Below, piece by piece: positions 35,479 through 47,023 of a stretch of 64,000 nucleotides of DNA. The stretch lies in sequence record PV357172.2. One strand, given 5' to 3'. The position numbers and the translations under genes were made by a program. The notes beneath the pieces are model-generated. The model saw only the letters and a program-made list of their open reading frames with translations, had not been told where the DNA came from and did not search any database. Source of the stretch: a phage. Within the stretch, counting starts at the first letter, position 1, and each line of letters starts with the position of its first letter.

Positions 35479-35550
35479 GCCGTCCTAGTATAATTGGTAT
35501 TATCAAGCCGTAACTGGTGGAAGATGTAGGTTCGAATCCTACGGTCGGTA
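35479..35550 (+). tRNA. tRNA-like element (possibly degenerate; anticodon not resolved)
   Basis: T-arm GTAGG-TTCGAAT-CCTAC and a 7-bp acceptor with one mismatch; anticodon stem does not fold cleanly. Confidence 0.3.
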
Positions 35551-36052: not shown

Positions 36053-36127
36053 CGGGGTGTAGTCTAAGGGAGAGGCAGGAGTCTTCTAAATTCCTTTATG
36101 CAGGTTCGAATCCTGTCACCTCGGCCA
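36053..36127 (+). tRNA. tRNA-Arg (anticodon TCT)
   Basis: Hand-folded cloverleaf: acceptor CGGGGTG/CACCTCG, anticodon loop CTTCTAA, T-arm GCAGG-TTCGAAT-CCTGT, encoded CCA. Confidence 0.65.
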
Positions 36128-36161
36128 ATTTTATTAACTGTAGCTAAAACAAAGGAAATAT

Positions 36162-37109
36162 ATGTTTAATACTAAAAATATGAAAGAACTGACTTCTGAG
36201 CAGAAAGTAATTCGTACTATTAAACGTTGGGGTATTGGTGCTGTAGTTGGTTTAGCAGGTTTAATCCTAGCTTTTAATTCATATACTGTTGTTCAAGACG
36301 GTACTGTTAAAACCCAGACTTTCCTGGGTAAAGTTGACCCTAGCCCAGTATTACCCGGCTTTCATATTGTAAATCCTTTTGCTTCTTTCGATACTTTTAG
36401 TACTAAAGATATTGCCCTAAAATTAGATAAACTTCAGGTTCCTAGCCAGGATAAGTTTAAATCCACTGTTGACCTGACTGTTATGTTGCAGTTTGATGGT
36501 TCTAAGGCACCAATTAACCGTATTAACGCAGGTACTCAGGATCAGGCGTTAGACAAGTATGTAACTGAAAAATTACTGTCTACTATTCGTGAGTTTGGTA
36601 AGTCTGTACCTAAAGCACAAGATTTGTTTGATGCTAAAATTCAGGCTCAATTGCAAACTGCAATTCAACAGGAAGTTGAAGAGTATGCACGCCCATATGG
36701 TTACACAGTTAAGCAGGTATTCCTTCAGGATATTACTTTGCCACCGGTAATCATGGAACAGGTACAGAATACCAAAGTTCGTGAAGAGCAAGTTAATGCT
36801 GCGAAAGCTGAACTGGCCCGCGTTGAACAAGAAGCGCAGCAAAAGGTTAAACAAGCAGAAGCAGACCGTGAAGCTCGCAACAACCAAGCTATTGCTAATG
36901 AACGTGACGCAGATGCTAAACTGTACGCAGCTAAGAAAGAAGCTGAAGCTAACGCCGCATTGCAACGTACCATTACTCCTGAGATGATTCGCTGGAAGCA
37001 ACTGGAAGTTGAAATGCTTCGTGCTGAAAAATACCAAGGTGGTGTACCGCAAACAGTAGTGGGAACTGGTTACGATGGCCAGATGATCATGGATATGCGT
37101 AATAAGTAA
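36162..37109 (+). CDS. SPFH/band-7 (prohibitin/HflK-like) membrane protein
   Basis: N-terminal TM segment, SPFH-like core, Ala/Glu/Gln-rich coiled-coil tail. Confidence 0.55.
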   Translation: MFNTKNMKELTSEQKVIRTIKRWGIGAVVGLAGLILAFNSYTVVQDGTVKTQTFLGKVDPSPVLPGFHIVNPFASFDTFSTKDIALKLDKLQVPSQDKFKSTVDLTVMLQFDGSKAPINRINAGTQDQALDKYVTEKLLSTIREFGKSVPKAQDLFDAKIQAQLQTAIQQEVEEYARPYGYTVKQVFLQDITLPPVIMEQVQNTKVREEQVNAAKAELARVEQEAQQKVKQAEADREARNNQAIANERDADAKLYAAKKEAEANAALQRTITPEMIRWKQLEVEMLRAEKYQGGVPQTVVGTGYDGQMIMDMRNK

Positions 37110-37145
37110 TATCCGCATGTAATCTCTGAAGTAAGCCCTGTGTTC

Positions 37146-37175
37146 CCTGGAGAGCGCAGGGCTTTTCTGTATTTA
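37146..37175 (+). terminator. rho-independent terminator
   Basis: Hairpin CCCTG-GAGAGCG-CAGGG followed by CTTTTCTGTATTT. Confidence 0.55.
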
Positions 37176-37299
37176 AGGCAAAAGAAAAAGCCCATAAGTT
37201 ATTCAACTAAGGTCTTTAGTATTTAATTCTTTAGAATCATATAATATTATTGCAGCAACAACGTGCTAACCTTAAGTGCCCTGCAATTTTCCTCTAAAA

Positions 37300-37350
37300 A
37301 GTTAAAAAATTCGATTGCTTGAATGCTAAATTCTCTGTATAATATATTTA
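37300..37350 (+). promoter_or_regulatory. sigma70-like strong early promoter
   Basis: TTGCTT at 37315-37320, 17-nt spacer, TGTATAAT ending at 37343. Confidence 0.6.
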
Positions 37351-37373
37351 TAAATTTGAGAGAGGAATCAAAT

Positions 37374-38429
37374 ATGATTAAGACTGGTCTAGTAATTGGT
37401 AAGTTCGCACCATTAACGCGTGGTCATATTAACCTAATAAACACAGCAGCAACTATGTGTGAACGAGTTATTGTTGTAGTTAGTCATGATAATCGTTGGC
37501 TGGATAAGCAGAACACACGTGATCAGGAAGTATTACAGTTAAAGAATCGACTTCGTTGGTTAGAACAAACTTACGCGGATATTGAGCACATTTCGGTAGA
37601 GTACATTATTGAAGATGATATTCCTGAATATCCGAATGGTTGGCCGGAATATGCTAGAATCCTTAATGAAAATTACGGACATTTGCCTGAGATCACCGTT
37701 TTCTCTAGCGAACTAGACTATGATGCAGAATATAAGAAATATCTGCCGAAGTTTGGTCATTATATTGTAGATTCTGATCGGACTCGTGTTCCAATCTCAG
37801 CTACAATGATTCGTAATGATCTTATGAAGTATTGGGAGTTTCTTCCTAGCTTAGTTCGTAAAGATTACGTGCGTAAGGTTGTAATCATTGGGACTGAAAG
37901 CTCGGGAAAGACTACTTTAACAAAATACCTTGCGAAGCTATACAACACTTCGTGGGTAGAAGAATATGGCCGAACGTATTGTGAAGTTGATCTAGTTGGT
38001 AACGAAAATCTACTTACCAGTGAAGATTACAGTAAAATTGCGTTCAGACACAAAGAGCTAGAGTTTGAAGCAGAACGTACTGCAAATAAGATCATGTTTG
38101 TGGATACAAATGCTTTTATTACTGAGTTCTACCACAGACTTTATGAACATAGTAAGAACCCTGTGGTTACAGCAATTGCAAAAGTAGAACATTACGATTT
38201 AGTAATTGTTCTAGCGCCTACTGTCAAGTGGGTAGATGATGATTTACGTATTAACTCCGATCGTTCAATTACTTCTGAACTGTTCGAGCAGATGAAGAAA
38301 GAATTTCCAAATCAGTTCCCTGAAGGGCGTACTGTTTACATCGACTCTCCGGACTACAAAGTTCGTATGGACGAAGCAGTAAACGCAGTAGACTGGCTGA
38401 TTCATCACTTTAACGTTGGAGAGTTTTAA
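37374..38429 (+). CDS. NadR-like bifunctional NMN adenylyltransferase / ribosylnicotinamide kinase
   Basis: N-terminal nucleotidyltransferase motif GKFAPLTRGHINLI; C-terminal P-loop IIGTESSGKTTL. Confidence 0.65.
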   Translation: MIKTGLVIGKFAPLTRGHINLINTAATMCERVIVVVSHDNRWLDKQNTRDQEVLQLKNRLRWLEQTYADIEHISVEYIIEDDIPEYPNGWPEYARILNENYGHLPEITVFSSELDYDAEYKKYLPKFGHYIVDSDRTRVPISATMIRNDLMKYWEFLPSLVRKDYVRKVVIIGTESSGKTTLTKYLAKLYNTSWVEEYGRTYCEVDLVGNENLLTSEDYSKIAFRHKELEFEAERTANKIMFVDTNAFITEFYHRLYEHSKNPVVTAIAKVEHYDLVIVLAPTVKWVDDDLRINSDRSITSELFEQMKKEFPNQFPEGRTVYIDSPDYKVRMDEAVNAVDWLIHHFNVGEF

Positions 38430-38430
38430 T

Positions 38431-39108
38431 ATGACTAACTATCTCGTAAATGACTTTAAAAACTGGAAACCTCTGGAATATCTGTGGCTGCTCATAGCGG
38501 TTGTCTTCATTAGTTTAGCAAACTATAATGGTACAGCTCTAGATTGGGCTACTGCAATAACCAATGTGGTTTGTGTTATTCTGGTTGCAAAAGGACGTGT
38601 TTCCAACTATATTTGGGGCTTAGTGGGTGTTCTTACATATGGTATTACAGCTTTAAACGCAGATCTTTATGGTAACGCTGCACTAAACCTGCTATACTAC
38701 GTTCCTATGCAGTTTTATGGAATGTACTTATGGCATAAAAATAAACCAAGTAATCTGCCAGACGTTCCAACTAAGGTTCTGACTAAAGCTCAGGCTTTAT
38801 TAACTCTTGGGATTCTAGCAGTAGCTACTCTAGGCTATGGCAGCTTCCTCGCTACCACAGCAGATCCGTTCCCAATGCTCGATGCATTTACTGCGGTTGG
38901 TAGTGTAATTGCTATGTGGCTTATGGTCAAGCAGTATGCTGAACAATGGCTAATCTGGATTGCCATTAATATTGGTACTGTATACATTTGGTTTGTAACT
39001 GCTCAGTCTACAGGTGCTTCTTATGCAATCCTAGCAATGTGGCTGGTATTCTTTGGTAACTCTGTACTTGGAGCCTATAAAGGGTACTTTGTACGCGTTA
39101 ACAAATAA
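38431..39108 (+). CDS. PnuC-like nicotinamide riboside transporter
   Basis: Multi-TM protein immediately downstream of NadR-like gene; ATG at 38431 after GGAGAG. Confidence 0.55.
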   Translation: MTNYLVNDFKNWKPLEYLWLLIAVVFISLANYNGTALDWATAITNVVCVILVAKGRVSNYIWGLVGVLTYGITALNADLYGNAALNLLYYVPMQFYGMYLWHKNKPSNLPDVPTKVLTKAQALLTLGILAVATLGYGSFLATTADPFPMLDAFTAVGSVIAMWLMVKQYAEQWLIWIAINIGTVYIWFVTAQSTGASYAILAMWLVFFGNSVLGAYKGYFVRVNK

Positions 39109-39116
39109 AATAGTTA

Positions 39117-39150
39117 TAGCCCTCAAAGCGAGGGCTATTATCCAGAAAAT
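39117..39150 (+). terminator. rho-independent terminator (weak U-tract)
   Basis: Hairpin AGCCCTC-AAAGC-GAGGGCT followed by ATTATCC. Confidence 0.4.
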
Positions 39151-39151
39151 T

Positions 39152-39192
39152 TCACTTGCTAAATGCCGAGATTTTCTGTATAATATATTTAT
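39152..39192 (+). promoter_or_regulatory. sigma70-like promoter driving tRNA transcription
   Basis: TTGCTA at 39156-39161, 17-nt spacer, TGTATAAT ending at 39184; tRNA-Ser begins about 15 nt downstream. Confidence 0.6.
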
Positions 39193-39198
39193 AAATTC

Positions 39199-39290
39199 GG
39201 AAGATTAACCCTAATTGGTAAGGGAGCATCTTGCTAAGTTGCCAGTAGCTGTGGAAACACGGTGTATCGGTTCAAGTCCGATATCTTCCT
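39199..39290 (+). tRNA. tRNA-Ser (anticodon GCT), long variable arm
   Basis: Perfect acceptor GGAAGAT/ATCTTCC, anticodon loop TTGCTAA, variable-arm hairpin, T-arm ATCGG-TTCAAGT-CCGAT, encoded CCA. Confidence 0.7.
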
Positions 39291-39298
39291 CCAAATTT

Positions 39299-39373
39299 GG
39301 TTCTCAAGCTCATTTGGTATGAGCCGTCGCCTCATAAGCGAAAGGTAGGTAGGTTCGAATCCTCCGGGAGCCA
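39299..39373 (+). tRNA. tRNA with CAT anticodon (Met or Ile2)
   Basis: Acceptor GGTTCTC/GGGAGCC with G-U pairs, D-stem GCTC/GAGC, anticodon loop CTCATAA, T-loop TTCGAAT, encoded CCA. Confidence 0.65.
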
Positions 39374-39393
39374 CCAGATAACTAGGAGACTTT

Positions 39394-39582
39394 ATGTCAC
39401 GCTTTCACGAAATTAAGCAAGAACTGGAAGAACTCGCCTGTCCTGAATGCTTTGGGACAGGTGAATGGAATGATGCTGAACCCGGGGATACGCGGTTTAA
39501 CACTTACGTTTGCACTCACTGTGAAGGTACTGGTGTAAACCCTCTTTACACTATTTCTCTTTTTGTAGGGGTTGCTAAATAA
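39394..39582 (+). CDS. small zinc-ribbon protein (62 aa)
   Basis: CPECFGTGEW...CTHCEGTG DnaJ-like Cys motifs. Confidence 0.45.
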   Translation: MSRFHEIKQELEELACPECFGTGEWNDAEPGDTRFNTYVCTHCEGTGVNPLYTISLFVGVAK

Positions 39583-39588
39583 TGCACT

Positions 39589-39936
39589 TTGAAGATGATG
39601 AAAAAAGAAGCGTTCTACACTGTCCCAGCAATTAATCTGCTCGGTACTGTACTATTTCAGATTAAGTTCTACCTGCGAGACGACTACACTGAAGTGGTAA
39701 ACGCTATTGTACCTGAGTTCTTCGTAAATAATTTCCAAAAGGACTTTAAGTTCTTTATTGATGATGTTTACGATGGTGTGGTTGATCCGGCAGTAGCTCC
39801 AGCTATATACAATGTATTTAATTCTCTGCCAGATCTAGATTTTGATCTAGGACTTATTGAGTCTGGTGAGATTATCTGGGCACTTAATGTTCCAGTGACT
39901 GGATTCCCTGGTTGGCTGCAAGGTTACGAACTCTAA
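39589..39936 (+). CDS. hypothetical protein (115 aa)
   Basis: ORF track. Confidence 0.45.
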   Translation: MKMMKKEAFYTVPAINLLGTVLFQIKFYLRDDYTEVVNAIVPEFFVNNFQKDFKFFIDDVYDGVVDPAVAPAIYNVFNSLPDLDFDLGLIESGEIIWALNVPVTGFPGWLQGYEL

Positions 39937-39944
39937 CAAAATTT

Positions 39945-40027
39945 GGATCTGTGGTGGAATTGGCAATACACACCATGCTTAAAACGTGGCGCTTAAATGA
40001 TTGAGGGTTCGAGCCCCTCCAGATCCA
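39945..40027 (+). tRNA. tRNA-Leu (anticodon TAA), long variable arm
   Basis: Perfect acceptor GGATCTG/CAGATCC, anticodon arm CCATG-CTTAAAA-CGTGG, T-arm GAGGG-TTCGAGC-CCCTC, encoded CCA. Confidence 0.7.
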
Positions 40028-40182
40028 CCAAATTAAGGAAGTAAAAATGAAATCTATTAAGAAAGCACTGCGTAAATTTATGTATTGTCGTTTTCATAGC
40101 ATCAAGGCTTCAACTAATGGTACTACTTACGATCGCTATGATCCTAAGTTTGGCTTACATTCTAAATAACTGGAGAAAACAA

Positions 40183-40389
40183 ATGGCTAATCCTGAAATT
40201 ACGGCACAACGCTTTATGCTGAAAGGAATTATTGCTGAAGCAGGCATGACAGAAGAAGTTGCAGATTTTCAAAAGCAATTCCTCAATATTCTCACTCAAG
40301 CCAAAGAGCTAGGAGAGAAAGAACATGGCGCGGCTATTATGGCAATCACATTGGTTGGGCTTGATCTGGCTGAAGAATCAGGAGTTTAA
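40183..40389 (+). CDS. hypothetical protein (about 68 aa)
   Basis: ATG at 40183 after GGAGAAAACAA; track ORF starts upstream. Confidence 0.45.
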   Translation: MANPEITAQRFMLKGIIAEAGMTEEVADFQKQFLNILTQAKELGEKEHGAAIMAITLVGLDLAEESGV

Positions 40390-40478
40390 CTCCTCCAAGC
40401 AGAAATTTTAAAAATGTACTTGCTTTTTACTTAAGATTTCTGCTATAATAGTTATATAAGTTGATGAGAGGAATCAGA

Positions 40479-40754
40479 ATGTTAAAACGTTTTGCAGCAA
40501 CTGGTATTGAAAGCTCAGTATGTAAATCCTGGGGTGGTTGGGAAGGTGAGATCGAGTGGCTTTATTTCTACAATGTAGAACTTCTTCCAGAGATCAAAGC
40601 TCAATGTATTGAGGCTGGTATGGCTCCTGATGCTACGGCTGATGTTGAAATCAGCATGAATAAGCTAGAGGGTCGAGTAGTCACTGTTACTGATGAAGGT
40701 GAAGAGGTATTCGAACTTCCATTCACTTTGAAAGTCACTCCTTCATTTGATTAA
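40479..40754 (+). CDS. hypothetical protein (about 91 aa)
   Basis: ATG at 40479 after promoter module and GAGAGG. Confidence 0.5.
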   Translation: MLKRFAATGIESSVCKSWGGWEGEIEWLYFYNVELLPEIKAQCIEAGMAPDATADVEISMNKLEGRVVTVTDEGEEVFELPFTLKVTPSFD

Positions 40755-40882
40755 CTGATACAGCACTGAGCAAGTTCTTTAAAATTTGACTTGCTCAGTA
40801 CCTTAAAACTTGGTATAATAGTTATCTAATTTGGAAACATATTTAAAAGTATTCAAATACTAGTTTAAACACTTTTAAATGT

Positions 40883-40966
40883 ACATCGTTGGCAGAATGG
40901 CTATTGTAGCGGTCTGTAAATCCGTGCCCTTCGGGATTGGTGGTTCGAATCTTACACGGCCCGCCA
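40883..40966 (+). tRNA. tRNA-Tyr-like element (GTA anticodon loop), possibly degenerate
   Basis: D-arm and anticodon arm (loop CTGTAAA) fold, variable-arm hairpin GCCC-TTC-GGG, TTCGAAT T-loop, CCA present; T-stem and acceptor pair poorly in my reading. Confidence 0.3.
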
Positions 40967-41068
40967 AATTCTGTGTAGAGTTAAGTAAACCGGTAGCCAA
41001 CCAGCTATCATTGCTGACATCGAATTCAGCCACAGATACCATTTTCATTAATAACTGAGGAAATAGAT

Positions 41069-41254
41069 ATGACAACTCGTGCAATTGCTCGACTAGAAGC
41101 TGATCGTGATAATCTGATTAATAATATTAAGGTTCGTGGTAATATTATTAAGGCTCTGAAAGCTGAACTTCTTGAAGAACTTCAAGGTCAAGTAGAGCGT
41201 CGTGAAGCTCTAAAAGAGGTTGAGGAAGCTATCGAAAAACTCAAAGCTGAGTAA
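41069..41254 (+). CDS. small coiled-coil protein (61 aa)
   Basis: ORF track; GAGGAAATAGAT RBS. Confidence 0.45.
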   Translation: MTTRAIARLEADRDNLINNIKVRGNIIKALKAELLEELQGQVERREALKEVEEAIEKLKAE

Positions 41255-41257
41255 ATT

Positions 41258-41839
41258 ATGCACGGAATATCCTTACCAATTCCAGGGTTTGAGGAGTACT
41301 TAGTAAGTTTGGATGGGTTAGTATTTAGTATCAAATCAAACAAAATACTAACCCCAATAACCAGTAATTACGGATACTTATCTATACGTCTCCATAAAAA
41401 TGGTCAACAGAGAAATACCGGTGTACATAGGATTTTAGCATGTGCATTTAAGAAATTACCAAGTCTAGACTCTGAACTAGAAGTTGACCATATTAACACA
41501 GACATTACTTATTGGGGTCTTAATAACTTACAAGTGCTCACAAAAGAGCAGCATCTAGAAAAGACTTTAAAAGATAAAGGATTTAGTAAACTAAACCATG
41601 ATAATTGTTGTAAGGATTGTGGTAAAGCTATTTCTTTAAAAGCTGAAAAATGTCAGGAGTGCTCTTCACATAAACCAAAAGATATCTCTATAACTAAAGA
41701 AATAATCGAGGTTACAGTAAGAGAGCTAGGCTGGTCAGGTGCAGGGAGAAAGTTAAGTTATTCAGATAATGGGTTGCGTAAAAGATACACTTCTTTAGGA
41801 GGCAATCCTAAAGAACTTAAAAAGTTAAAGGTACTATAG
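41258..41839 (+). CDS. HNH endonuclease with zinc finger and C-terminal HTH
   Basis: HNH region ELEVDHINTDITYWGLNNLQVLTKEQH; CKDCG...CQEC zinc finger; paralog of 43929-44513. Confidence 0.65.
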   Translation: MHGISLPIPGFEEYLVSLDGLVFSIKSNKILTPITSNYGYLSIRLHKNGQQRNTGVHRILACAFKKLPSLDSELEVDHINTDITYWGLNNLQVLTKEQHLEKTLKDKGFSKLNHDNCCKDCGKAISLKAEKCQECSSHKPKDISITKEIIEVTVRELGWSGAGRKLSYSDNGLRKRYTSLGGNPKELKKLKVL

Positions 41840-41901
41840 TCTAACGGTTAGGATACTCCCCTGTCACGGGAGAGGTAGGGTTTCGATTACCCTTAGTACC
41901 G
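41830..41901 (+). tRNA. tRNA-Asp (anticodon GTC)
   Basis: Perfect acceptor GGTACTA/TAGTACC, anticodon arm CTCCC-CTGTCAC-GGGAG, T-arm AGGGT-TTCGATT-ACCCT, CCA; 5' end overlaps HNH stop codon. Confidence 0.7.
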
Positions 41902-41910
41902 CCAAATTAT

Positions 41911-41984
41911 ACATCCATAGCTCAATTGGTTAGAGCTACCGCCTCTTAAGCGGTAGGTTCTAGGTTCAAGTCCTAGTGGGTGTA
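41911..41984 (+). tRNA. tRNA-Lys (anticodon CTT)
   Basis: Acceptor ACATCCA/TGGGTGT, D-stem GCTC/GAGC, anticodon arm ACCGC-CTCTTAA-GCGGT, T-arm CTAGG-TTCAAGT-CCTAG, CCA. Confidence 0.7.
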
Positions 41985-41987
41985 CCA

Positions 41988-42200
41988 AACATCAGAGCAG
42001 CGTGATGTACTGCAAAGACCCAAAGTCCGGGGTGGACTTCTTGATTCAAAGGAGCAGGCACTAATTATCATTCTAGCGTGGTGGAGAGGGGACACCAGCT
42101 TGCCGAGGGTAGAAGCTCGTTCGATTCGAGTGAAAGAATGGTTCTCGTAAATCCGCACAAGTGATAGCAGGTTCAAGTCCTGCCTAGATTGACTTATTAT
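41988..42200 (+). ncRNA. structured noncoding segment with two orphan T-arm-like hairpins (pseudo-tRNAs or small RNA)
   Basis: GCTCG-TTCGATT-CGAGT and GCAGG-TTCAAGT-CCTGC T-arm-like elements with no pairing acceptor stems found; no credible ORF. Confidence 0.3.
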
Positions 42201-42271
42201 GCGTTCGTAGTTAAAAGGTATAATTTTTGGTTGCCAACCAGAAGTTGAGGGTTCGATTCCCTCCGACCGCA
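42201..42271 (+). tRNA. tRNA-Gly (anticodon GCC)
   Basis: Acceptor GCGTTCG/CGACCGC (one mismatch), anticodon arm TTTGG-TTGCCAA-CCAGA, T-arm GAGGG-TTCGATT-CCCTC, CCA. Confidence 0.65.
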
Positions 42272-42587
42272 CCAAATTTAGGTTTCTGCTTCCTAGAGAA
42301 CGGACTCCTAGATAAACAAGGCGATGAGTTTCCGGCCGGTTCTAGTCGCTGAAAATCCTCCCGACCAGGTAGGTGTAAGTAAATGAAAGTTTACTTATTG
42401 AGTAGGTTCCGATAGACCGGCGGGTCTATTCTGGCATTTAAGAGAGGTCTCGCAAACTTCTTTGTCAGCCGTGGGGTTGGTAGCCTCCAGGTGGCCTACA
42501 CAATAAGTAAATTTATTAAAAATTCATTTGCTATTCTGCTTAATTCTCTGTATAATATATTTTATAAAGTGAGTTAACAAAAATTAA

Positions 42588-42660
42588 CAGTGCGTAGCGC
42601 AGTTGGTAGCGTGGGAGCCTTGGGTGCTTCGGGTCGCAGGTTCGAGTCCTGCCGCACTGA
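42588..42660 (+). tRNA. tRNA-Pro (anticodon TGG)
   Basis: Perfect acceptor CAGTGCG/CGCACTG, anticodon arm GGAGC-CTTGGGT-GCTTC, T-arm GCAGG-TTCGAGT-CCTGC, CCA; directly after promoter module. Confidence 0.7.
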
Positions 42661-42669
42661 CCAAACAAT

Positions 42670-42744
42670 TGCGGGTTAGATCTCTGGTAGAGATCGCTAG
42701 TCTCATAAGCTAGAAAGAGGTAGGTTCGATTCCTGCACCCGCTT
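42670..42744 (+). tRNA. tRNA with CAT anticodon (Met/fMet or Ile2)
   Basis: Anticodon loop CTCATAA, T-arm GTAGG-TTCGATT-CCTGC, CCA; position 1-72 appears unpaired (U-U) in my fold. Confidence 0.6.
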
Positions 42745-42767
42745 CCATTTTAATAGAGGATTTCGAA

Positions 42768-42931
42768 ATGAAAGTATTTCGATTAGTAGTAAGTGACAAA
42801 CGGTTAGGTAAGAATACATCAAAATCCTTACTTGCTCATTATGGTAAAAATTGGGATGAAGTAATGGCAGAGTTTAATACTAATCACCCTTACTTGAAAG
42901 TTCACTCTATTAAGGAAGTTTATGCTTATTA
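42768..42931 (+). CDS. small protein (about 54 aa)
   Basis: Below track threshold; ATG at 42768 after AGAGGA; overlaps start of next gene. Confidence 0.35.
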
Positions 42932-43395
42932 ACAGGGTGCTTCAAGCTCTAGATCTTCCAGAGCTCTTTACTATTACCGACCCCTTAATACATCGGTATA
43001 TGGAAAAGTATAATGAAATCTCTGGTAAAAAAGGGAAACTAAAATCCTCAGAATTTAAGTTCTGTTATAGAATGGCAGCATTAAACCTCTTAAAGTACAA
43101 GAGGGAGCATAAAATCCCTATAACAGAAGGATTTGTCTATGTAATAGGTAGTCCAGCATGGCCTGGACTATATAAGATAGGTATGACAGTAGATGTGAAT
43201 GAAAGACTGTCTAGTTATCAAACATATTCGCCTTATCGTGATTACAAGTTATACCATTTCAGATTCTCCTCGGACAAGAGAAGAACTGAAAAAGCATTAC
43301 ATAACCTTCTGAAGGACTACAAAGTATCAGGAGAATGGTTTGAAGTACCTCTGTTAGACGCCTTCAAACTATTAGTAGAAAATTTGGATTGCTAA
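42922..43395 (+). CDS. T5orf172/GIY-YIG-like domain protein
   Basis: Motif GFVYVIGSPAWPGLYKIGMT...R...E; AAGGAAG RBS. Confidence 0.5.
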   Translation: MLINRVLQALDLPELFTITDPLIHRYMEKYNEISGKKGKLKSSEFKFCYRMAALNLLKYKREHKIPITEGFVYVIGSPAWPGLYKIGMTVDVNERLSSYQTYSPYRDYKLYHFRFSSDKRRTEKALHNLLKDYKVSGEWFEVPLLDAFKLLVENLDC

Positions 43396-43460
43396 CTCAA
43401 CTGGATAAGAGTACCGGACCTTTAATCCGTCAGTTCTGGGTTCGAATCCCAGGCAATCCA
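43386..43460 (+). tRNA. tRNA-Lys (anticodon TTT)
   Basis: Perfect acceptor GGATTGC/GCAATCC, anticodon loop CCTTTAA, T-arm CTGGG-TTCGAAT-CCCAG, CCA; 5' end overlaps last codons of upstream CDS. Confidence 0.65.
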
Positions 43461-43748
43461 CCAATTTCAAGAAAAACTCAGTTGCTTGATGCTTAATTTC
43501 TTGTTATAATATTTATATAAATTGATGAGGAGAAATCCTCATCATAGTTCACTAAGGTATTAGCTCGACCTAGGACTGGCTGCCAAAAAGCACGATCCCT
43601 ACGATTTGGGAGAAGTTCTAGATTAGTCCACTAGATTCAGCGGCAACTGAATAGTGTATCGGTTTTGCGAGATGACGCGGTTCCTTCCGCTCGAAGCGAA
43701 GGTGCTGTAGTTACGCCGAGCTAATAGCCTTAGTAAACTAAGGAATTT

Positions 43749-43819
43749 GGGGATATAGTTTAATGGTAGAACATCTGCTTTGCACGCAGAAGACGAGGGT
43801 TCAACTCCCTCTTTCTCCA
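43749..43819 (+). tRNA. tRNA-Ala (anticodon TGC)
   Basis: Acceptor GGGGATA/TTTCTCC (one mismatch), anticodon arm TCTGC-TTTGCAC-GCAGA, T-arm GAGGG-TTCAACT-CCCTC, CCA. Confidence 0.65.
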
Positions 43820-43827
43820 CCAAATTT

Positions 43828-43909
43828 GGGGCTATGCTGGAACTGGTAGACAATACGGCCTTAGATTCCGTAGCTTAAATGCGTGGGAGTTCGAGTCTCC
43901 CTAGCCCCA
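43828..43909 (+). tRNA. tRNA-Leu (anticodon TAG), long variable arm
   Basis: Perfect acceptor GGGGCTA/TAGCCCC, anticodon loop CTTAGAT, T-arm GGGAG-TTCGAGT-CTCCC, CCA. Confidence 0.65.
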
Positions 43910-43928
43910 CCAACTTATAGGGTAATGT

Positions 43929-44513
43929 ATGCAGTTTGTACCAATAAAAGATGCACCAGGGTATTTAGTAAATGAAACAGGGGATGTGTTATCTACATTT
44001 ACTAATAAAATCTTATCAAGATATATAGTTGATGGGTACCCTGCTGTAAAATTACAGATAAATGGTAAGCAAACTTCGGTACTTATACACCGAATTATTT
44101 CTCATGTATTTGGGGACTTATATAATCTATTTGACCCTGAATTAGAAGTAGATCACAAGGATAGAGATAGGCTGAATCTATCTAAAGATAATCTTCAAGT
44201 TTTATCAAAAATAGAACATCAGAAGAAAACTAATAAAGATAATGGATGGTCTGATAGTAGAGTACCTTGCCCCTTATGTGGAAATCTAATGCTTCAGAGA
44301 TCAGTAACATGTACAAATTGTAAGCCAAAACCTACAGGAAAGTTAATAAAACCAGAATTGTCCTTAGAAGACATAACTGAAAAGGTTTTATTAATGGGGT
44401 GGGTTAAGGCAGCTAAAGATCTAGAAGTATCAGAGTCCACTTTACGTAGACGATATACTAAACTAACCGGATTAAGCCCGAAAGTATTAACAGAACAACG
44501 GAAAAGCAAATAG
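43929..44513 (+). CDS. HNH endonuclease with zinc finger and C-terminal HTH
   Basis: HNH region ELEVDHKDRDRLNLSKDNLQVL; CPLCG...CTNC zinc finger; paralog of 41258-41839. Confidence 0.65.
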   Translation: MQFVPIKDAPGYLVNETGDVLSTFTNKILSRYIVDGYPAVKLQINGKQTSVLIHRIISHVFGDLYNLFDPELEVDHKDRDRLNLSKDNLQVLSKIEHQKKTNKDNGWSDSRVPCPLCGNLMLQRSVTCTNCKPKPTGKLIKPELSLEDITEKVLLMGWVKAAKDLEVSESTLRRRYTKLTGLSPKVLTEQRKSK

Positions 44514-44590
44514 ACTGGTGACTAAACCCGATTGGAAATCGGTTGAGTGGTAGCAATACCGCCTTATGGGTTCAACTCCCATCTTTTCCG
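44500..44590 (+). tRNA. tRNA-Ser (anticodon GGA), long variable arm
   Basis: Perfect acceptor GGAAAAG/CTTTTCC, anticodon loop TTGGAAA, T-arm ATGGG-TTCAACT-CCCAT, CCA; 5' end lies inside last codons of HNH gene. Confidence 0.6.
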
Positions 44591-44605
44591 CCAAACAATT
44601 TATAT

Positions 44606-44697
44606 GGTAGGTCAATCCAATGGCTGGCGCTGGACTCCGACTTGAAATCGGTTGATCGTAGTGATACGGTGTAAGGGTTCGATCCCCTTACCTACCT
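44606..44697 (+). tRNA. tRNA-Ser (anticodon TGA), long variable arm
   Basis: Perfect acceptor GGTAGGT/ACCTACC, anticodon loop CTTGAAA, T-arm AAGGG-TTCGATC-CCCTT, CCA. Confidence 0.65.
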
Positions 44698-44955
44698 CCA
44701 AATCTTGAAGTATGCCGGAATCGGTAGACGGGGCTGCCTAAAAGGTTTATAGGGAACATCCACTCCCTGCAACATACCTCATAAAGCGGCTGAGATAAAT
44801 GGTCTATCTCGTGAAGGTTCAAGTCCTTCTGCTTCTTGATACATCTATGGCTCAAAGTGTAACGGTGCTATTTGATGCTCTTGGTAAGACTTCCCCGACA
44901 TGCGTTCGGGAGTAAGCTGCTAAGACTAGAGTAGAAGAGTTTCTGAGAGCCGCCA

Positions 44956-45070
44956 CAATTGAAAATTCGTACTCGTCTTGAGCTGCGTGCAATAGGAGAT
45001 AACTTGATTAGTATTCTAGAACATGCTAATTGAGGATGGTTTCGCTAACCCTGCGAGTTTTCAATTGTGG
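44956..45070. repeat. 14-bp perfect inverted repeat GCCACAATTGAAAA / TTTTCAATTGTGGC separated by about 88 nt
   Basis: Read directly; distal arm overlaps the 5' acceptor of tRNA-His. Confidence 0.5.
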
Positions 45071-45140
45071 CTATATCATAATTGGTTAATGATCCTGATT
45101 GTGAATCAGGCCTATGTGGATTCGAATTCCACTAGCCACC
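45067..45140 (+). tRNA. tRNA-His (anticodon GTG)
   Basis: Perfect acceptor GTGGCTA/TAGCCAC, anticodon arm CCTGA-TTGTGAA-TCAGG, T-arm GTGGA-TTCGAAT-TCCAC, C discriminator, CCA. Confidence 0.65.
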
Positions 45141-45168
45141 CCAAATTAACTTAAATAGGAAATAAAAT

Positions 45169-45369
45169 ATGGCTGATTTCTGCAAGCAATGCTCCCTTGA
45201 TATGTGGGGCAGAGATACTGGTGACTTATCTGGTCTGATTACAGAAGCCGAAGTCAAAGAAGGTTATAGTGCAGTTGTGATTTGTGAAGGCTGCGGTGTT
45301 ATCCGTGTAGACCACACCGGTAAGCGTTTGGAAGAACCAGTTCCAATTGCGCAAGTTCCTGTAGAATAA
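45169..45369 (+). CDS. hypothetical protein (66 aa)
   Basis: ORF track; Cys pairs CKQC...CEGC suggest a zinc ribbon. Confidence 0.45.
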   Translation: MADFCKQCSLDMWGRDTGDLSGLITEAEVKEGYSAVVICEGCGVIRVDHTGKRLEEPVPIAQVPVE

Positions 45370-45377
45370 AAAATTAT

Positions 45378-45450
45378 TGGAGTGTAGCTCAACTGGCAGA
45401 GCGACGGTTTCTGACACCGTAGGTTTCTAGTTCGATCCTAGACATTCCAG
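45378..45450 (+). tRNA. tRNA-Gln (anticodon CTG)
   Basis: Acceptor TGGAGTG/CATTCCA, D-stem GCTC/GAGC, anticodon arm ACGGT-TTCTGAC-ACCGT, T-arm TCTAG-TTCGATC-CTAGA, CCA. Confidence 0.65.
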
Positions 45451-45459
45451 CCAAACAAT

Positions 45460-45534
45460 TGGGGATTAGCTTAGCTTGGCCTAAAGCTTCGGCCTTTGAA
45501 GTCGAGATCATTGGTTCAAATCCAATATCCCCTG
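45460..45534 (+). tRNA. tRNA-Gln (anticodon TTG)
   Basis: Anticodon arm TCGGC-CTTTGAA-GTCGA, T-arm ATTGG-TTCAAAT-CCAAT, CCA; first acceptor pair mismatched in my fold. Confidence 0.6.
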
Positions 45535-45545
45535 CCAAACAATAA

Positions 45546-45618
45546 GCGATTAAGCACACGGGTTGTGCCGCAGGCCTTCCAAGCCCCGCTGAGTAGGGTT
45601 CGATTCCCTCTAGCCGCT
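45546..45618 (+). tRNA. tRNA, anticodon uncertain (possibly TCC, Gly)
   Basis: T-arm with TTCGATT loop, acceptor with one mismatch, CCA; anticodon stem weak in my fold. Confidence 0.4.
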
Positions 45619-45638
45619 CCAACTTTAAGGAAACATTT

Positions 45639-45860
45639 ATGCACGTTTTTGAGTTTCGTGATAAAAGTAACAATAAACGAGTTATTGTTATTGGAGAAAC
45701 ATACCTAGCATACGAACAAACTGATGGCTCTGTTATCTTGAATGATGAGAAAGCAAATTTTAGCTTTTATCCAGAAGAACCTTATGAAGAGTTTCGTACT
45801 AAGTTTCTTTTACCAGACTGGCTAGCAGTAGCCGAGCAACGAGAATCCGAAGATGGCTGA
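45639..45860 (+). CDS. hypothetical protein (73 aa)
   Basis: ORF track; AAGGAAACATTT RBS. Confidence 0.45.
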   Translation: MHVFEFRDKSNNKRVIVIGETYLAYEQTDGSVILNDEKANFSFYPEEPYEEFRTKFLLPDWLAVAEQRESEDG

Positions 45861-46014
45861 TAACCTAAAATTAAGGGTTGACAAACAAAAGAAATACGTT
45901 GAGGTTGAATTAGGCGAAGAACGCTTAAAGCTAACTTTCGAGTTTCTTCAGCAGTTGGCTATGACAGTCATGACTGATAAGTCTCCTGTTATTGAAAAAG
46001 AAATCCCGTTGAAA
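45853..46014 (+). CDS. small protein (about 53 aa)
   Basis: Below track threshold; ATG overlaps upstream stop (ATGGCTGA). Confidence 0.35.
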
Positions 46015-46025
46015 TAGGAAGCAAC

Positions 46026-46418
46026 ATGGAGTTTACTTGTTTAAATTGCGGAATCACAAAACCTAAAAGTAGGGGTTCCGCAGGTAAGTATTGTGGTGCT
46101 GCTTGTCAGCAGGAGTACCAGACAAAGCAAAAAGTATTAAAGTGGCTGGCAGGTGAAGAACCTGGTTATACTGGTAAAGCTGCACAATTAAAACCTTTTG
46201 TTAGGAAGTGGCTGTGGGATACTCGTGGTACTGCTTGTGAAGTATGTGGTTGGGATGGGAAACATCCAATTGACGGAGCAGTTTTAACTGAGGTAGATCA
46301 TATAGATGGAGATGCAACTAACTGTTCTCCAGAAAATCTAAAGATTCTCTGCCCTAACTGTCACTCTATGACACCTACGCATAGGGCCAGAAATAGAGTT
46401 TCAACAAGACAACGATAG
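46026..46418 (+). CDS. small HNH endonuclease (130 aa)
   Basis: HNH/zinc motifs TEVDHIDGDATNCSPENLKILCPNCH. Confidence 0.6.
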   Translation: MEFTCLNCGITKPKSRGSAGKYCGAACQQEYQTKQKVLKWLAGEEPGYTGKAAQLKPFVRKWLWDTRGTACEVCGWDGKHPIDGAVLTEVDHIDGDATNCSPENLKILCPNCHSMTPTHRARNRVSTRQR

Positions 46419-46489
46419 CTCTTAAAGCATTGCTGGCGATGCAACGGTCTTGTAAACCGTGGAACCGGGTTCGATTCCTGGTGGGAGCA
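46418..46489 (+). tRNA. tRNA-Thr (anticodon TGT)
   Basis: Acceptor GCTCTTA/TGGGAGC, D-stem GCAT/ATGC, anticodon arm ACGGT-CTTGTAA-ACCGT, T-arm CCGGG-TTCGATT-CCTGG, CCA; first base is last base of HNH stop codon. Confidence 0.7.
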
Positions 46490-46567
46490 CCAAAATTAAA
46501 AAATTCATTTGCCTTCTCTCTTATTTCTTGTTATAATATTTATATAAATTAATGAGAGGGAAACCAA

Positions 46568-46861
46568 ATGAAACGTTATCTTTCTGTCGTGTTCCAAACT
46601 GGTGGTCAACGCTACACTTATGAATTTCCTGAGTCCTGGAAAATTAAAGAAGGTGATCAAGTTGTTGTATTAACACCTCGTGAAGGCTTCAAAGTAGTAA
46701 CGGTTAAACAAGTATTTCCAAAAGATCACGAACCATCTAAGGCTATTCAGTACAAGATGATTCATGGTCTGGTACGAAAAGTACCTAGAACAGAAGTCGA
46801 AGTAGATAAAACTGGGGAAGCTAAATACCAGTATACCTCTTACTTAGATGAAATGATGTAA
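46568..46861 (+). CDS. hypothetical protein (97 aa)
   Basis: ORF track; promoter module and GAGAGGGAAACC RBS upstream. Confidence 0.5.
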   Translation: MKRYLSVVFQTGGQRYTYEFPESWKIKEGDQVVVLTPREGFKVVTVKQVFPKDHEPSKAIQYKMIHGLVRKVPRTEVEVDKTGEAKYQYTSYLDEMM

Positions 46862-46862
46862 T

Positions 46863-46935
46863 GCTCTGATAGTTCAACAGGTTAGAACAGACGACCGATA
46901 ATCGTCAAATCTTGGTTCGATCCCAAGTCGGAGTA
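46863..46935 (+). tRNA. tRNA-Ile (anticodon GAT)
   Basis: Acceptor GCTCTGA/TCGGAGT, D-stem GTTC/GAAC, anticodon arm GACGA-CCGATAA-TCGTC, T-arm CTTGG-TTCGATC-CCAAG, CCA. Confidence 0.7.
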
Positions 46936-46944
46936 CCAAATTAT

Positions 46945-47017
46945 AGTTAGTTGGCAGAGTGGTTATGCACCTCCTTCATACGGAGCGACTACAGTGGTTC
47001 AAATCCACTACTAACTA
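46945..47017 (+). tRNA. tRNA with CAT anticodon (Met or Ile2)
   Basis: Perfect acceptor AGTTAGT/ACTAACT, anticodon loop TTCATAC, T-arm AGTGG-TTCAAAT-CCACT, CCA. Confidence 0.6.
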
Positions 47018-47023
47018 CCAAAC

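What the first reader, a model, noticed from the sequence alone, without database searches (positions are those of the whole stretch)
39299..47017. Three distinct tRNAs with CAT anticodons
CAT-anticodon tRNAs occur at 39299, 42670 and 46945, probably covering initiator Met, elongator Met and lysidine-modified Ile2. The copy at 42670 has an unpaired 1-72 position in my fold, which is reminiscent of initiators. A phage-encoded initiator tRNA would be a notable translation-takeover feature.
Basis: partly seen in the sequence, partly recalled or inferred. Interest (0 to 1): 0.35.

Follow-up and report, generated by a model that had tools for sequence, protein, structure and literature searches.

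The report
T5-type phage fMet, Met, Ile2 tRNAs
The window comes from a T5-like phage, and its three CAU-anticodon tRNA genes match the initiator-Met, elongator-Met and AUA-reading Ile tRNAs already annotated in phage T5, so the finding is real but already known.

Summary
ARAGORN and Rfam both find exactly three CAT-anticodon tRNA genes on the + strand, at 39299-39376 (tA), 42670-42747 (tB) and 46945-47020 (tC).

The window is a T5-like phage (Demerecviridae). tB and tC are 100% identical to the T5 genes annotated tRNAfM(CAU) and tRNAM(CAU). tA is 86% identical to T5 tRNAI2(CAU).

Identity positions agree with those labels:
- **tB (initiator-like):** U1xU72 mismatch, G2-C71, C3-G70, G4-C69 and A11-U24. 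It lacks the three consecutive G-C pairs (A29-U41, G30-C40, U31.G39) and has U73. It keeps only the middle pair, which published E. coli work finds essential.
- **tC (elongator Met):** paired 1-72, and the tRNAMet-type U4-A69 and A5-U68 pairs that reject lysidine synthetase.
- **tA (Ile2):** closest to E. coli ileX, with an anticodon arm almost the same as T4 tRNAIle. It has only one of the two E. coli TilS acceptor determinants.

ATA makes up 17.6% of Ile codons in the window, and no phage TilS was found.

A T5-coded fMet tRNA was reported in 1975, so the trio is not new. One side result: tB belongs to a widespread family of "U1" initiator-like tRNAs that was almost entirely virus-borne in the samples examined.

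The parts
39299..39376 (+). tA: tRNA(CAU), Ile2-type (presumed lysidine-modified, AUA-reading). Ortholog of T5 tRNAI2(CAU). CCA is encoded, and the T-stem has a bulged U.
   Evidence: Found by ARAGORN and Rfam at 40.0 bits. It is 85.9% identical to NC_005859 tRNAI2(CAU). Features: G1-C72, U4-A69, C5-G68, U12-A23, G27xA43, C29-G41, loop CUCAUAA, A73. Its closest E. coli tRNA is ileX at 68% identity, and its anticodon arm is close to T4 tRNAIle. Compensatory changes against the T5, SEL21 and My1 orthologs occur at 2-71, 28-42, 30-40, 31-39 and 49-65.
42670..42747 (+). tB: tRNA(CAU), non-canonical initiator (fMet) type. 100% identical to T5 tRNAfM(CAU). CCA is encoded.
   Evidence: Found by ARAGORN and Rfam at 43.6 bits. 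Identical to AY543070/AY692264 tRNAfM, which the T5 record notes as 'initiator tRNA fMet'. Features: U1xU72, G2-C71, C3-G70, G4-C69, G5-C68, G6-C67, U7-A66, A11-U24, A29-U41, G30-C40, U31.G39, U73. Its closest E. coli tRNA is tRNAfMet at 58%. For the family it belongs to.
46945..47020 (+). tC: tRNA(CAU), elongator Met type. 100% identical to T5 tRNAM(CAU). CCA is encoded.
   Evidence: Found by ARAGORN and Rfam at 51.5 bits. Identical to the T5 tRNAM gene. Features: A1-U72, U4-A69, A5-U68, C30-G40, G44, loop UUCAUAC, A73, C27xC43. Its closest E. coli tRNA is elongator tRNAMet at 65%. Acceptor-stem compensatory changes are seen in the SEL21 and My1 orthologs.
39199..39293 (+). tRNA-Ser(GCU), 5 nt upstream of tA. 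The same Ser-I2 pairing occurs in T5.
   Evidence: T5 gene order; bux gene order.
42588..42663 (+). tRNA-Pro(UGG), 6 nt upstream of tB. The same Pro-fM pairing occurs in T5.
46863..46938 (+). tRNA-Ile(GAU), 6 nt upstream of tC. The same I1-M neighbourhood occurs in T5.

Best explanation
The window is part of a T5-like (Demerecviridae) phage genome. Its tRNA island carries the standard T5 trio of CAU-anticodon tRNAs, and each does a different job using host enzymes.

tB (42670) is an initiator. Host MetRS charges it through the CAU anticodon. Host formyltransferase formylates it because of the unpaired 1-72 position together with G2-C71, C3-G70 and A11-U24. The same mismatch keeps it away from EF-Tu. 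It enters the ribosomal P site through G30-C40, the one pair of the usual three G-C pairs that E. coli needs.

tC (46945) is an ordinary elongator tRNAMet. It has a paired 1-72 and the U4-A69/A5-U68 pairs that stop lysidine synthetase from acting on it.

tA (39299) is a tRNAIle2. Host TilS converts C34 to lysidine, after which IleRS charges it and it reads AUA. The phage uses AUA much more than E. coli does.

Shown here: the genes, their folds, their identity positions, their orthology to the annotated T5 genes, their conservation and covariation, and the AUA usage. Inferred, not shown: charging, formylation, lysidine formation and the benefit to the phage.
For: - **Genes are real.**
- **T5-like phage.** 613 related phage records; best is Salmonella phage bux (Epseptimavirus) at 92% identity, with the same gene order.
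- **Orthology to curated T5 genes.** T5 tRNAI2(CAU), tRNAfM(CAU) 'initiator tRNA fMet' and tRNAM(CAU). tB and tC are sequence-identical to T5.
- **tB determinants.** U1xU72, G2-C71, C3-G70, G4-C69 and A11-U24 are the formyltransferase determinants listed in PMC7949028. G30-C40 is kept, and the middle pair alone is essential in E. coli; an au/GC/gu variant sustains growth (PMC5389676).
- **tB family.** Among 74 distinct family members, G30-C40 is 95% conserved, against 67% in 680 other viral tRNAs. A11 is 68% against 6%. The flanking stem pairs covary freely.
- **Independent label.** A separate pipeline labels tB tRNA-fMet.
- **Nearest E. coli tRNA by identity.** tA to ileX 68%, tB to fMet 58%, tC to Met 65%.
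- **tC determinants.** It has the TilS negative determinants U4-A69 and A5-U68, plus C30-G40 and G44 (PMC2500205).
- **tA determinants.** It has C5-G68, U12-A23, C29-G41 (invariant in four orthologs while neighbouring pairs covary), A38 and A73. It has no C27-G43, and its anticodon arm is almost identical to T4 tRNAIle (PMC9976931).
- **T5 record notes.** The anticodon swap makes tRNAI2 an amber suppressor but not tRNAM. That fits an anticodon-dependent MetRS identity for tC only.
- **Codon usage.** ATA is 11.7 per 1000 codons and 17.6% of Ile codons in 62 window ORFs. From my own knowledge, E. coli K-12 is roughly 4 per 1000 and about 7%.
- **No phage TilS.** None in the window or in T5-like genomes.
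Against: - **tB is not a canonical initiator.** It lacks two of the three G-C pairs and has U73 instead of A73. A73 contributes to MetRS and formyltransferase recognition in E. coli (own knowledge). Its mismatch is UxU, not CxA.
- **tA is only half Ile2-like in the acceptor stem.** It carries U4-A69, which is the tRNAMet-type negative determinant for E. coli TilS (PMC2500205). Nearly all automated annotations call it tRNA-Met. ARAGORN failed to call the T5 ortholog at all.
- **tC has oddities.** It has a C27xC43 mismatch and an unusual U32/C38 loop. Its MFE fold is not a cloverleaf, and a few records label it pseudo or 'OTHER'.
- **Weak classifier.** The pairwise-identity margins are small (4-10 points).
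- **Missing tests.** No isotype covariance models could be run. The 1975 biochemical paper could not be read here, so the link between its fMet species and this gene rests on the T5 annotators.
Confidence: 0.75

Rival explanations
1. tA is a second elongator tRNAMet (or a dual-use tRNA), not a lysidine-modified tRNAIle2. AUA would then be read by the host's own tRNAIle2.
For: tA has U4-A69, the tRNAMet-type negative determinant for E. coli TilS (PMC2500205). Most database records label it tRNA-Met. Its identity to E. coli tRNAMet (64%) is only 4 points below its identity to ileX (68%).
Against: C5-G68 is Ile2-type. There is no C27-G43, so TmcA-type tRNAMet recognition is unlikely. C29-G41, U12-A23, A38 and A73 fit IleRS. 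The anticodon arm is nearly identical to T4 tRNAIle. The curated T5 annotation calls it I2. tC already supplies a cleaner tRNAMet. The phage uses ATA about 2.5 times more than E. coli.
Confidence: 0.2
2. tB is not an initiator. It would instead be a defective or elongator tRNAMet whose 1-72 mismatch is incidental.
For: tB has no 3-GC run and has U73. Its Rfam score is among the lower ones in the island (43.6 bits). One record labels it tRNA-OTHER.
Against: It is 100% conserved between this phage and T5, and 204 records are at least 99% identical. The U1 mismatch or weak pair, G2-C71, C3-G70, R11 and G30-C40 are kept across unrelated phage families, with strong stem covariation: 15 of 18 pairs show double changes. 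The formyltransferase determinants are all present. T5 was reported to encode a formylatable Met tRNA (1975 paper title).
Confidence: 0.08
3. The class assignment is the same, but the selective reason is different. The phage copies would exist mainly as nuclease-resistant replacements for host tRNAs attacked during infection, rather than for codon supply. For tB the example would be VapC/MvpT, which cleaves host tRNAfMet in the anticodon stem-loop.
For: The anticodon stem of tB differs from host tRNAfMet at 4 of 5 pairs (27-43, 28-42, 29-41 and 31-39), including position 39 at the 3' edge of the loop. Salmonella and Shigella hosts carry VapC that targets tRNAfMet, and phage tRNAs have been proposed to evade such enzymes (PMC10264068). 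The U1 family was almost entirely virus-borne in the samples examined.
Against: No cleavage data exist for tB. PMC10264068 states that phages generally avoid encoding tRNA-fMet. The determinants VapC recognises are not known to me. The difference could equally reflect drift under relaxed 3-GC selection.
Confidence: 0.2

Closest known systems
Bacteriophage T5 tRNA genes tRNAfM(CAU), tRNAM(CAU) and tRNAI2(CAU) (NC_005859 / AY543070)
   Same: tB and tC are identical in sequence to the T5 genes, and tA is 85.9% identical to T5 I2. The immediate neighbours are the same (Pro-fM, Ile(GAU)-M, Ser(GCU)-I2). All have an encoded CCA.
   Different: tA differs from T5 I2 by compensatory changes in the anticodon stem and T-stem. 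It matches the Epseptimavirus (Salmonella phage) version exactly.
E. coli initiator tRNAfMet (metZWV, metY)
   Same: CAU anticodon and loop CUCAUAA. Unpaired 1-72. Identical acceptor positions 2-6 (GCGGG/CCCGC). A11-U24. G30-C40. Encoded CCA.
   Different: UxU rather than CxA at 1-72. U7-A66 rather than G7-C66. U73 rather than A73. A29-U41 and U31.G39 replace two of the three G-C pairs. Overall identity is only 58%.
Natural and engineered 3-GC-variant initiators (mycoplasma and rhizobial types; the au/GC/gu mutant of Shetty et al., PMC5389676)
   Same: They retain only the middle G30-C40 with a weakened first and third pair. Such tRNAs are formylated and can sustain E. coli.
   Different: In tB the third pair is U31.G39, not G31-U39. 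tB is encoded by a virus and acts alongside the host's canonical initiator.
E. coli tRNAIle2 (ileX/ileY) and phage T4 tRNAIle(CAU)
   Same: tA shares the loop CUCAUAA, C29-G41, U12-A23, A73 and C5-G68, and has a non-Watson-Crick 27-43. G27xA43, U28-A42, C29-G41 and C31-G39 are as in T4 tRNAIle. T4-like phages are known to carry lysidine-type Ile(CAU) tRNAs (PMC1524935).
   Different: tA has U4-A69 where E. coli and T4 have C4-G69. It also has a bulged U in the T-stem.
E. coli elongator tRNAMet (metT/metU)
   Same: tC shares U4-A69, A5-U68, C30-G40, G44, A73 and a paired 1-72, with 65% identity.
   Different: tC has A1-U72, a C27xC43 mismatch instead of C27-G43, and loop UUCAUAC (U32, C38) instead of CUCAUAA.

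Membership tests
T5-group (Demerecviridae) tRNA island trio fM / M / I2 | Sequence orthology to the annotated T5 genes | tested here: met
   tB and tC are 100% identical to the T5 genes, and tA is 85.9% identical.
T5-group (Demerecviridae) tRNA island trio fM / M / I2 | Conserved gene neighbourhood (Ser(GCU)-I2, Pro(UGG)-fM, Ile(GAU)-M) within a T5-like genome | tested here: met
Bacterial initiator tRNAfMet | CAU anticodon with an unpaired (or weak) 1-72 position | tested here: met
   U1xU72 in tB. Among 46 parsed family members: UxU 24, U-A 19, UxC 3.
Bacterial initiator tRNAfMet | Formyltransferase helpers G2-C71, C3-G70 and A11-U24 (PMC7949028) | tested here: met
   All are present in tB. 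A11 occurs in 68% of the family against 6% of other viral tRNAs.
Bacterial initiator tRNAfMet | Three consecutive G-C pairs: G29-C41, G30-C40, G31-C39 | tested here: not met
   tB has A29-U41, G30-C40 and U31.G39. Only the middle pair is present, which is the essential one in E. coli (PMC5389676). tB is therefore filed as a non-canonical, initiator-like variant and not as a canonical member.
Bacterial initiator tRNAfMet | A73 discriminator | tested here: not met
   tB has U73. Among family members, A73 occurs in 36 of 46 and U73 in 9 of 46.
Bacterial initiator tRNAfMet | Methionylation, formylation and P-site initiation activity | not testable with these tools
The paper itself is not held.
tRNAIle2 (lysidine, CAU) | E. 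coli TilS acceptor determinants C4-G69 and C5-G68 (PMC2500205, PMC11947777) | tested here: inconclusive
   tA has U4-A69 (Met-type) and C5-G68 (Ile2-type). T4 tRNAIle has both.
tRNAIle2 (lysidine, CAU) | IleRS elements A73, U12-A23, C29-G41 and loop A37/A38 (PMC9976931) | tested here: met
   All are present in tA. C29-G41 is invariant in the window, T5, SEL21 and My1 orthologs. The C4-G69 element is absent.
tRNAIle2 (lysidine, CAU) | Absence of the TmcA/tRNAMet determinant C27-G43 | tested here: met
   tA has G27xA43, as in T4 tRNAIle.
tRNAIle2 (lysidine, CAU) | Best score with an Ile2 isotype covariance model (tRNAscan-SE 2.0) | not testable with these tools
The surrogate was pairwise identity: ileX 68%, Met 64%.
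tRNAIle2 (lysidine, CAU) | Lysidine at C34, Ile charging and AUA decoding | not testable with these tools
   No TilS is encoded by the phage, so the host enzyme would be required.
Elongator tRNAMet | CAU anticodon, A73, Watson-Crick 1-72 | tested here: met
   tC has A1-U72 and A73.
Elongator tRNAMet | TilS anti-determinants U4-A69 and A5-U68 | tested here: met
   Both are present in tC (PMC2500205).
Elongator tRNAMet | TmcA determinants C27-G43, C30-G40 and G44 | tested here: inconclusive
   tC has C30-G40 and G44 but C27xC43. C27-G43 is restored in the Klebsiella SEL21 ortholog.

The most novel reading that the evidence does not exclude
tB may be one member of a largely virus-restricted class of 'U1' initiator tRNAs. 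Its features are U1xU72 or U1-A72, G2-C71, C3-G70, R11 and only G30-C40 conserved in the anticodon stem. The class is spread across unrelated phage families: Demerecviridae, Straboviridae (KVP40, where it is unannotated), Grimontviridae and many uncultivated viral contigs. In this reading, phages keep it because it still initiates when the host initiator is attacked or limiting, for example by VapC-type cleavage of tRNAfMet, or because it loosens IF3 proofreading on phage mRNAs. The existence of the family is shown here. The adaptive function is not.
Probability: 0.2. Interest if true: 0.6.

Novelty: already known. Interest (0 to 1): 0.15.

Why it matters
For this window it matters mainly as correct annotation. 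Most pipelines label all three genes tRNA-Met. In fact the phage appears to bring its own initiator, elongator Met and AUA-reading Ile tRNAs, as T5 does.

T5-coded Met and fMet tRNAs were described in 1975, and the genes are curated in the T5 reference genome, so nothing new about T5 biology follows from the finding.

The wider point concerns this initiator itself. It violates the 'three G-C pairs' rule yet keeps exactly the one pair that E. coli genetics says is essential. It also has many relatives in other viruses. That would make it a natural test case for what an initiator tRNA minimally needs, and for whether phages carry initiators to escape host tRNAfMet-targeting toxins.

Tried and rejected
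- **Papers not held.** I tried to read Chen et al. 1975 (PMC432352) and Winther & Gerdes 2011 (PMC3088637). Neither is held. The biochemical evidence for T5 fMet-tRNA and the VapC cleavage details are therefore cited only second-hand.
- **Loop-motif scan.** A scan for YTCATR across the window gave 151 matches against about 178 expected by chance. It was useless for finding further CAT tRNAs. ARAGORN and Rfam are the relevant detectors.
- **Rfam-only hit.** The hit at 35479-35550 was checked as a possible fourth CAT tRNA. It has no CAT anticodon and has a broken anticodon stem.
- **RNAfold MFE.** It reproduces the cloverleaf for tA and tB but not for the AT-rich tC. I did not treat this as evidence against tC, given its 51.5-bit covariance-model score and the compensatory changes in its orthologs.
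- **Genome-collection scan.** The U1 pattern in the bacterial and archaeal collection returned mostly chance matches: 107 of 120 loci had no tRNA. It served only as a control.
- **Home-made isotype models.** I considered building my own isotype covariance models. I rejected this because the only annotated cellular tRNAs available are from E. coli, so the models would be circular or too narrow.
- **Phage-encoded TilS.** This was considered and rejected.

Full report
**Observation.** ARAGORN finds 19 tRNA genes in the window, all on the + strand between 36 and 47 kb. Three carry a CAT anticodon, at 39299-39376 (tA), 42670-42747 (tB) and 46945-47020 (tC). Rfam's tRNA model finds the same three independently, at 40.0, 43.6 and 51.5 bits against a gathering score of 29. 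Each gene encodes its own CCA end. There is no fourth CAT tRNA. The single extra Rfam-only hit at 35479-35550 is a tRNA-like element with a disrupted anticodon stem and no CAT. The three share only 46-61% pairwise identity.

**Where the window comes from.** The 8.2-kb tRNA region matches 613 phage records. The best is Salmonella phage bux (Demerecviridae, Epseptimavirus) at 92% identity over 84% of the query. bux has the same local order: Ser-Met, Pro-Met and Ile-Met. The window is therefore a T5-like phage. Searched alone, tA matches 504 phage records, tB 395 and tC 540.

In the curated T5 reference (NC_005859 / AY543070) the orthologs are annotated as follows:
- tRNAI2(CAU), a tRNA-Ile, for tA.
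- tRNAM(CAU) for tC.

tB and tC are identical base for base to the T5 genes, and tA is 85.9% identical. [quoted passage not shown] I could not read that paper.

**Independent check of tB (initiator).** By direct reading and by RNAfold, tB has U1 opposite U72, which is unpaired. It then has G2-C71, C3-G70, G4-C69, G5-C68, G6-C67 and U7-A66. It has A11-U24 in the D stem, loop CUCAUAA and discriminator U73. Positions 2-6 are the same as in E. coli tRNAfMet.

The formyltransferase determinants given in PMC7949028 are the 1-72 mismatch, G2:C71, C3:G70 and A11:U24. All are present. The anticodon stem is A29-U41, G30-C40, U31.G39, not three G-C pairs.

Shetty et al. (PMC5389676) showed that in E. coli only the middle pair G30-C40 is essential. 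They also showed that an au/GC/gu variant is formylated and sustains growth, with reduced fitness. tB keeps exactly that pair. I therefore call it a non-canonical initiator: it should work like tRNAfMet, but it does not meet the canonical definition. U73 is a further departure.

**The tB family.** Close relatives with the same 5' end (UGCG[G/A]GUUA), the U1 mismatch and CAU occur in several other phages:
- Erwinia phage KEY
- Proteus phage 2
- Pectobacterium My1
- Salmonella pSal-SNUABM-01 (Grimontviridae)
- Vibrio KVP40 (Straboviridae), where the gene is unannotated

ARAGORN called 94 U1-type CAU tRNAs in them. An alignment of 63 sequences gives a cloverleaf in which 15 of 18 predicted pairs show double compensatory changes.

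The pattern fixed only the first 9 bases and the loop, so the following are free observations:
- Position 72 is U in 24, A in 19 and C in 3 of 46 parsed sequences. The 1-72 position is therefore always a mismatch or the weak U-A pair.
- G30-C40 is 95% conserved, against 67% in 680 non-CAU tRNAs of the same loci and 58% in other CAU tRNAs.
- 29-41 and 31-39 vary freely.
- A11 is 68% (purine 82%), against 6% A11 in other tRNAs.

These are initiator hallmarks. As a control, I ran the same pattern on the bacterial and archaeal genome collection. It gave almost only chance matches. Of 120 loci, 107 had no tRNA, and only 3 held U1-type tRNAs, two of them inside 10- and 14-tRNA arrays that look phage-like.

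**tC versus tA.** E. coli TilS recognises C4-G69 and C5-G68 in tRNAIle2. It is repelled by U4-A69 and A5-U68 of tRNAMet. TmcA, which acetylates tRNAMet, needs C27-G43, C30-G40 and G44, and G27.U43 blocks it (PMC2500205; PMC11947777).

tC has U4-A69 and A5-U68, C30-G40, G44, A73 and a paired A1-U72. That is a tRNAMet pattern, apart from a C27xC43 mismatch that is repaired to C-G in the Klebsiella ortholog.

tA has U4-A69 but C5-G68, G27xA43, U12-A23, C29-G41, A38 and A73. The last four fit the IleRS identity set (PMC9976931). C29-G41 stays fixed in four orthologs, while 28-42, 30-40 and 31-39 covary. The tA anticodon arm and variable loop are almost the same as those of T4 tRNAIle(CAU), a class described as lysidine-type in T4-like phages (PMC1524935).

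The nearest E. coli tRNA by identity is ileX for tA (68%, against 64% for Met and 52% for fMet). It is fMet for tB (58%, against 51% and 54%). It is Met for tC (65%, against 55% and 49%). The T5 record notes that an anticodon swap turns I2 into an amber suppressor, but does not do so for M. This is expected if only M depends on the anticodon for MetRS identity.

The Ile2 call for tA is the weakest of the three because of U4-A69.

**Context for function.** In 62 ORFs of the window, ATA is 11.7 per 1000 codons and 17.6% of Ile codons. From my own knowledge this is about 2.5 times E. coli usage, so an extra AUA reader is plausible. No TilS homolog is present in the window, and no T5-like genome appeared among the listed TilS hits in the phage collection. 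Lysidine formation, methionylation and formylation must therefore be done by host enzymes. Why the phage carries its own initiator is not established. Possible reasons include supply after host shut-off, resistance to VapC-type cleavage of host tRNAfMet (a hypothesis in the spirit of PMC10264068, which however says phages generally avoid encoding tRNA-fMet), and altered start selection.

**Verdict.** This is the T5 trio tRNAfM / tRNAM / tRNAI2. Limits of this analysis: tRNAscan-SE isotype models could not be run, and no modification or charging data are available.

Noticed in passing
window 42670-42747; L012 301-376 (KVP40 NC_005083.2 177260-177335); L008 5546-5621; L009-L011; L014-L133: tB belongs to a large family of 'U1' CAU tRNAs. 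Their features are a 5' UGCG[G/A]GUUA, U1xU72 or U1-A72, R11 and a near-invariant G30-C40. The family occurs in unrelated phage families and in at least 120 IMG/VR contigs. It was almost absent from the sample of cellular genomes, where 3 of 120 pattern hits were tRNAs, two of them in phage-like tRNA arrays. The KVP40 copy is not annotated in its RefSeq record.
   Followed up: partly
window 35479-35550 (+): A tRNA-like element is found by Rfam (35.5 bits) but not by ARAGORN. Its acceptor, D and T arms are good, but the anticodon stem does not pair and there is no CAT anticodon. It may correspond to the 'tRNA-like stable RNAs' annotated in T5.
   Followed up: partly
window 39299-39376 and orthologs (L002 11087-11164, L007 10001-10078, L008 11999-12076): The tA (Ile2-type) family has a conserved single bulged U in the 5' strand of the T-stem, with a compensatory change at 49-65 (G-C in the window, C-G in T5). 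ARAGORN failed to call the T5 ortholog, possibly because of this bulge (not checked).
   Followed up: partly
window 46945-47020; L007 13479-13555; L008 12082-12159; several IMG/VR loci (e.g. L032, L052, L054, L056, L122): The tC-type elongator Met tRNAs share an unusual anticodon loop, UUCAUAC (U32, C38), in place of the bacterial CUCAUAA. This loop recurs in CAU tRNAs of many viral contigs that also carry a U1-type tRNA. The loop change might relate to anticodon-nuclease evasion or to modification.
   Followed up: no
window 40031-41829: Compared with Salmonella phage bux and T5, this phage has no tRNA genes for Tyr, Glu, Trp, Phe, Cys or Asn between tRNA-Leu(UAA) and tRNA-Asp. No tRNA-Val was found in the window either. 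The tRNA island is therefore a reduced version, with 19 genes called. In recent literature (own recollection, not checked here) some T5 tRNAs have been linked to defence evasion.
   Followed up: no
window 36053-47020: Every one of the 18 tRNA genes called by both ARAGORN and Rfam extends 3 nt beyond the Rfam end. Encoded CCA was read directly only for the three CAT tRNAs and their three upstream neighbours (tRNA-Ser, tRNA-Pro, tRNA-Ile). The pairs Ser-tA, Pro-tB and Ile-tC are separated by only 5-6 nt, which suggests co-transcription and processing as dimers.
   Followed up: no
L002 (NC_005859.1 26000-40000) feature notes: The T5 RefSeq notes say 'replacement of the anticodon with 5'-CAU-3' sequence converts this tRNA into amber suppressor'. 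This is presumably a typing error for CUA. The notes record per-tRNA suppressor tests that are otherwise hard to find.
   Followed up: no
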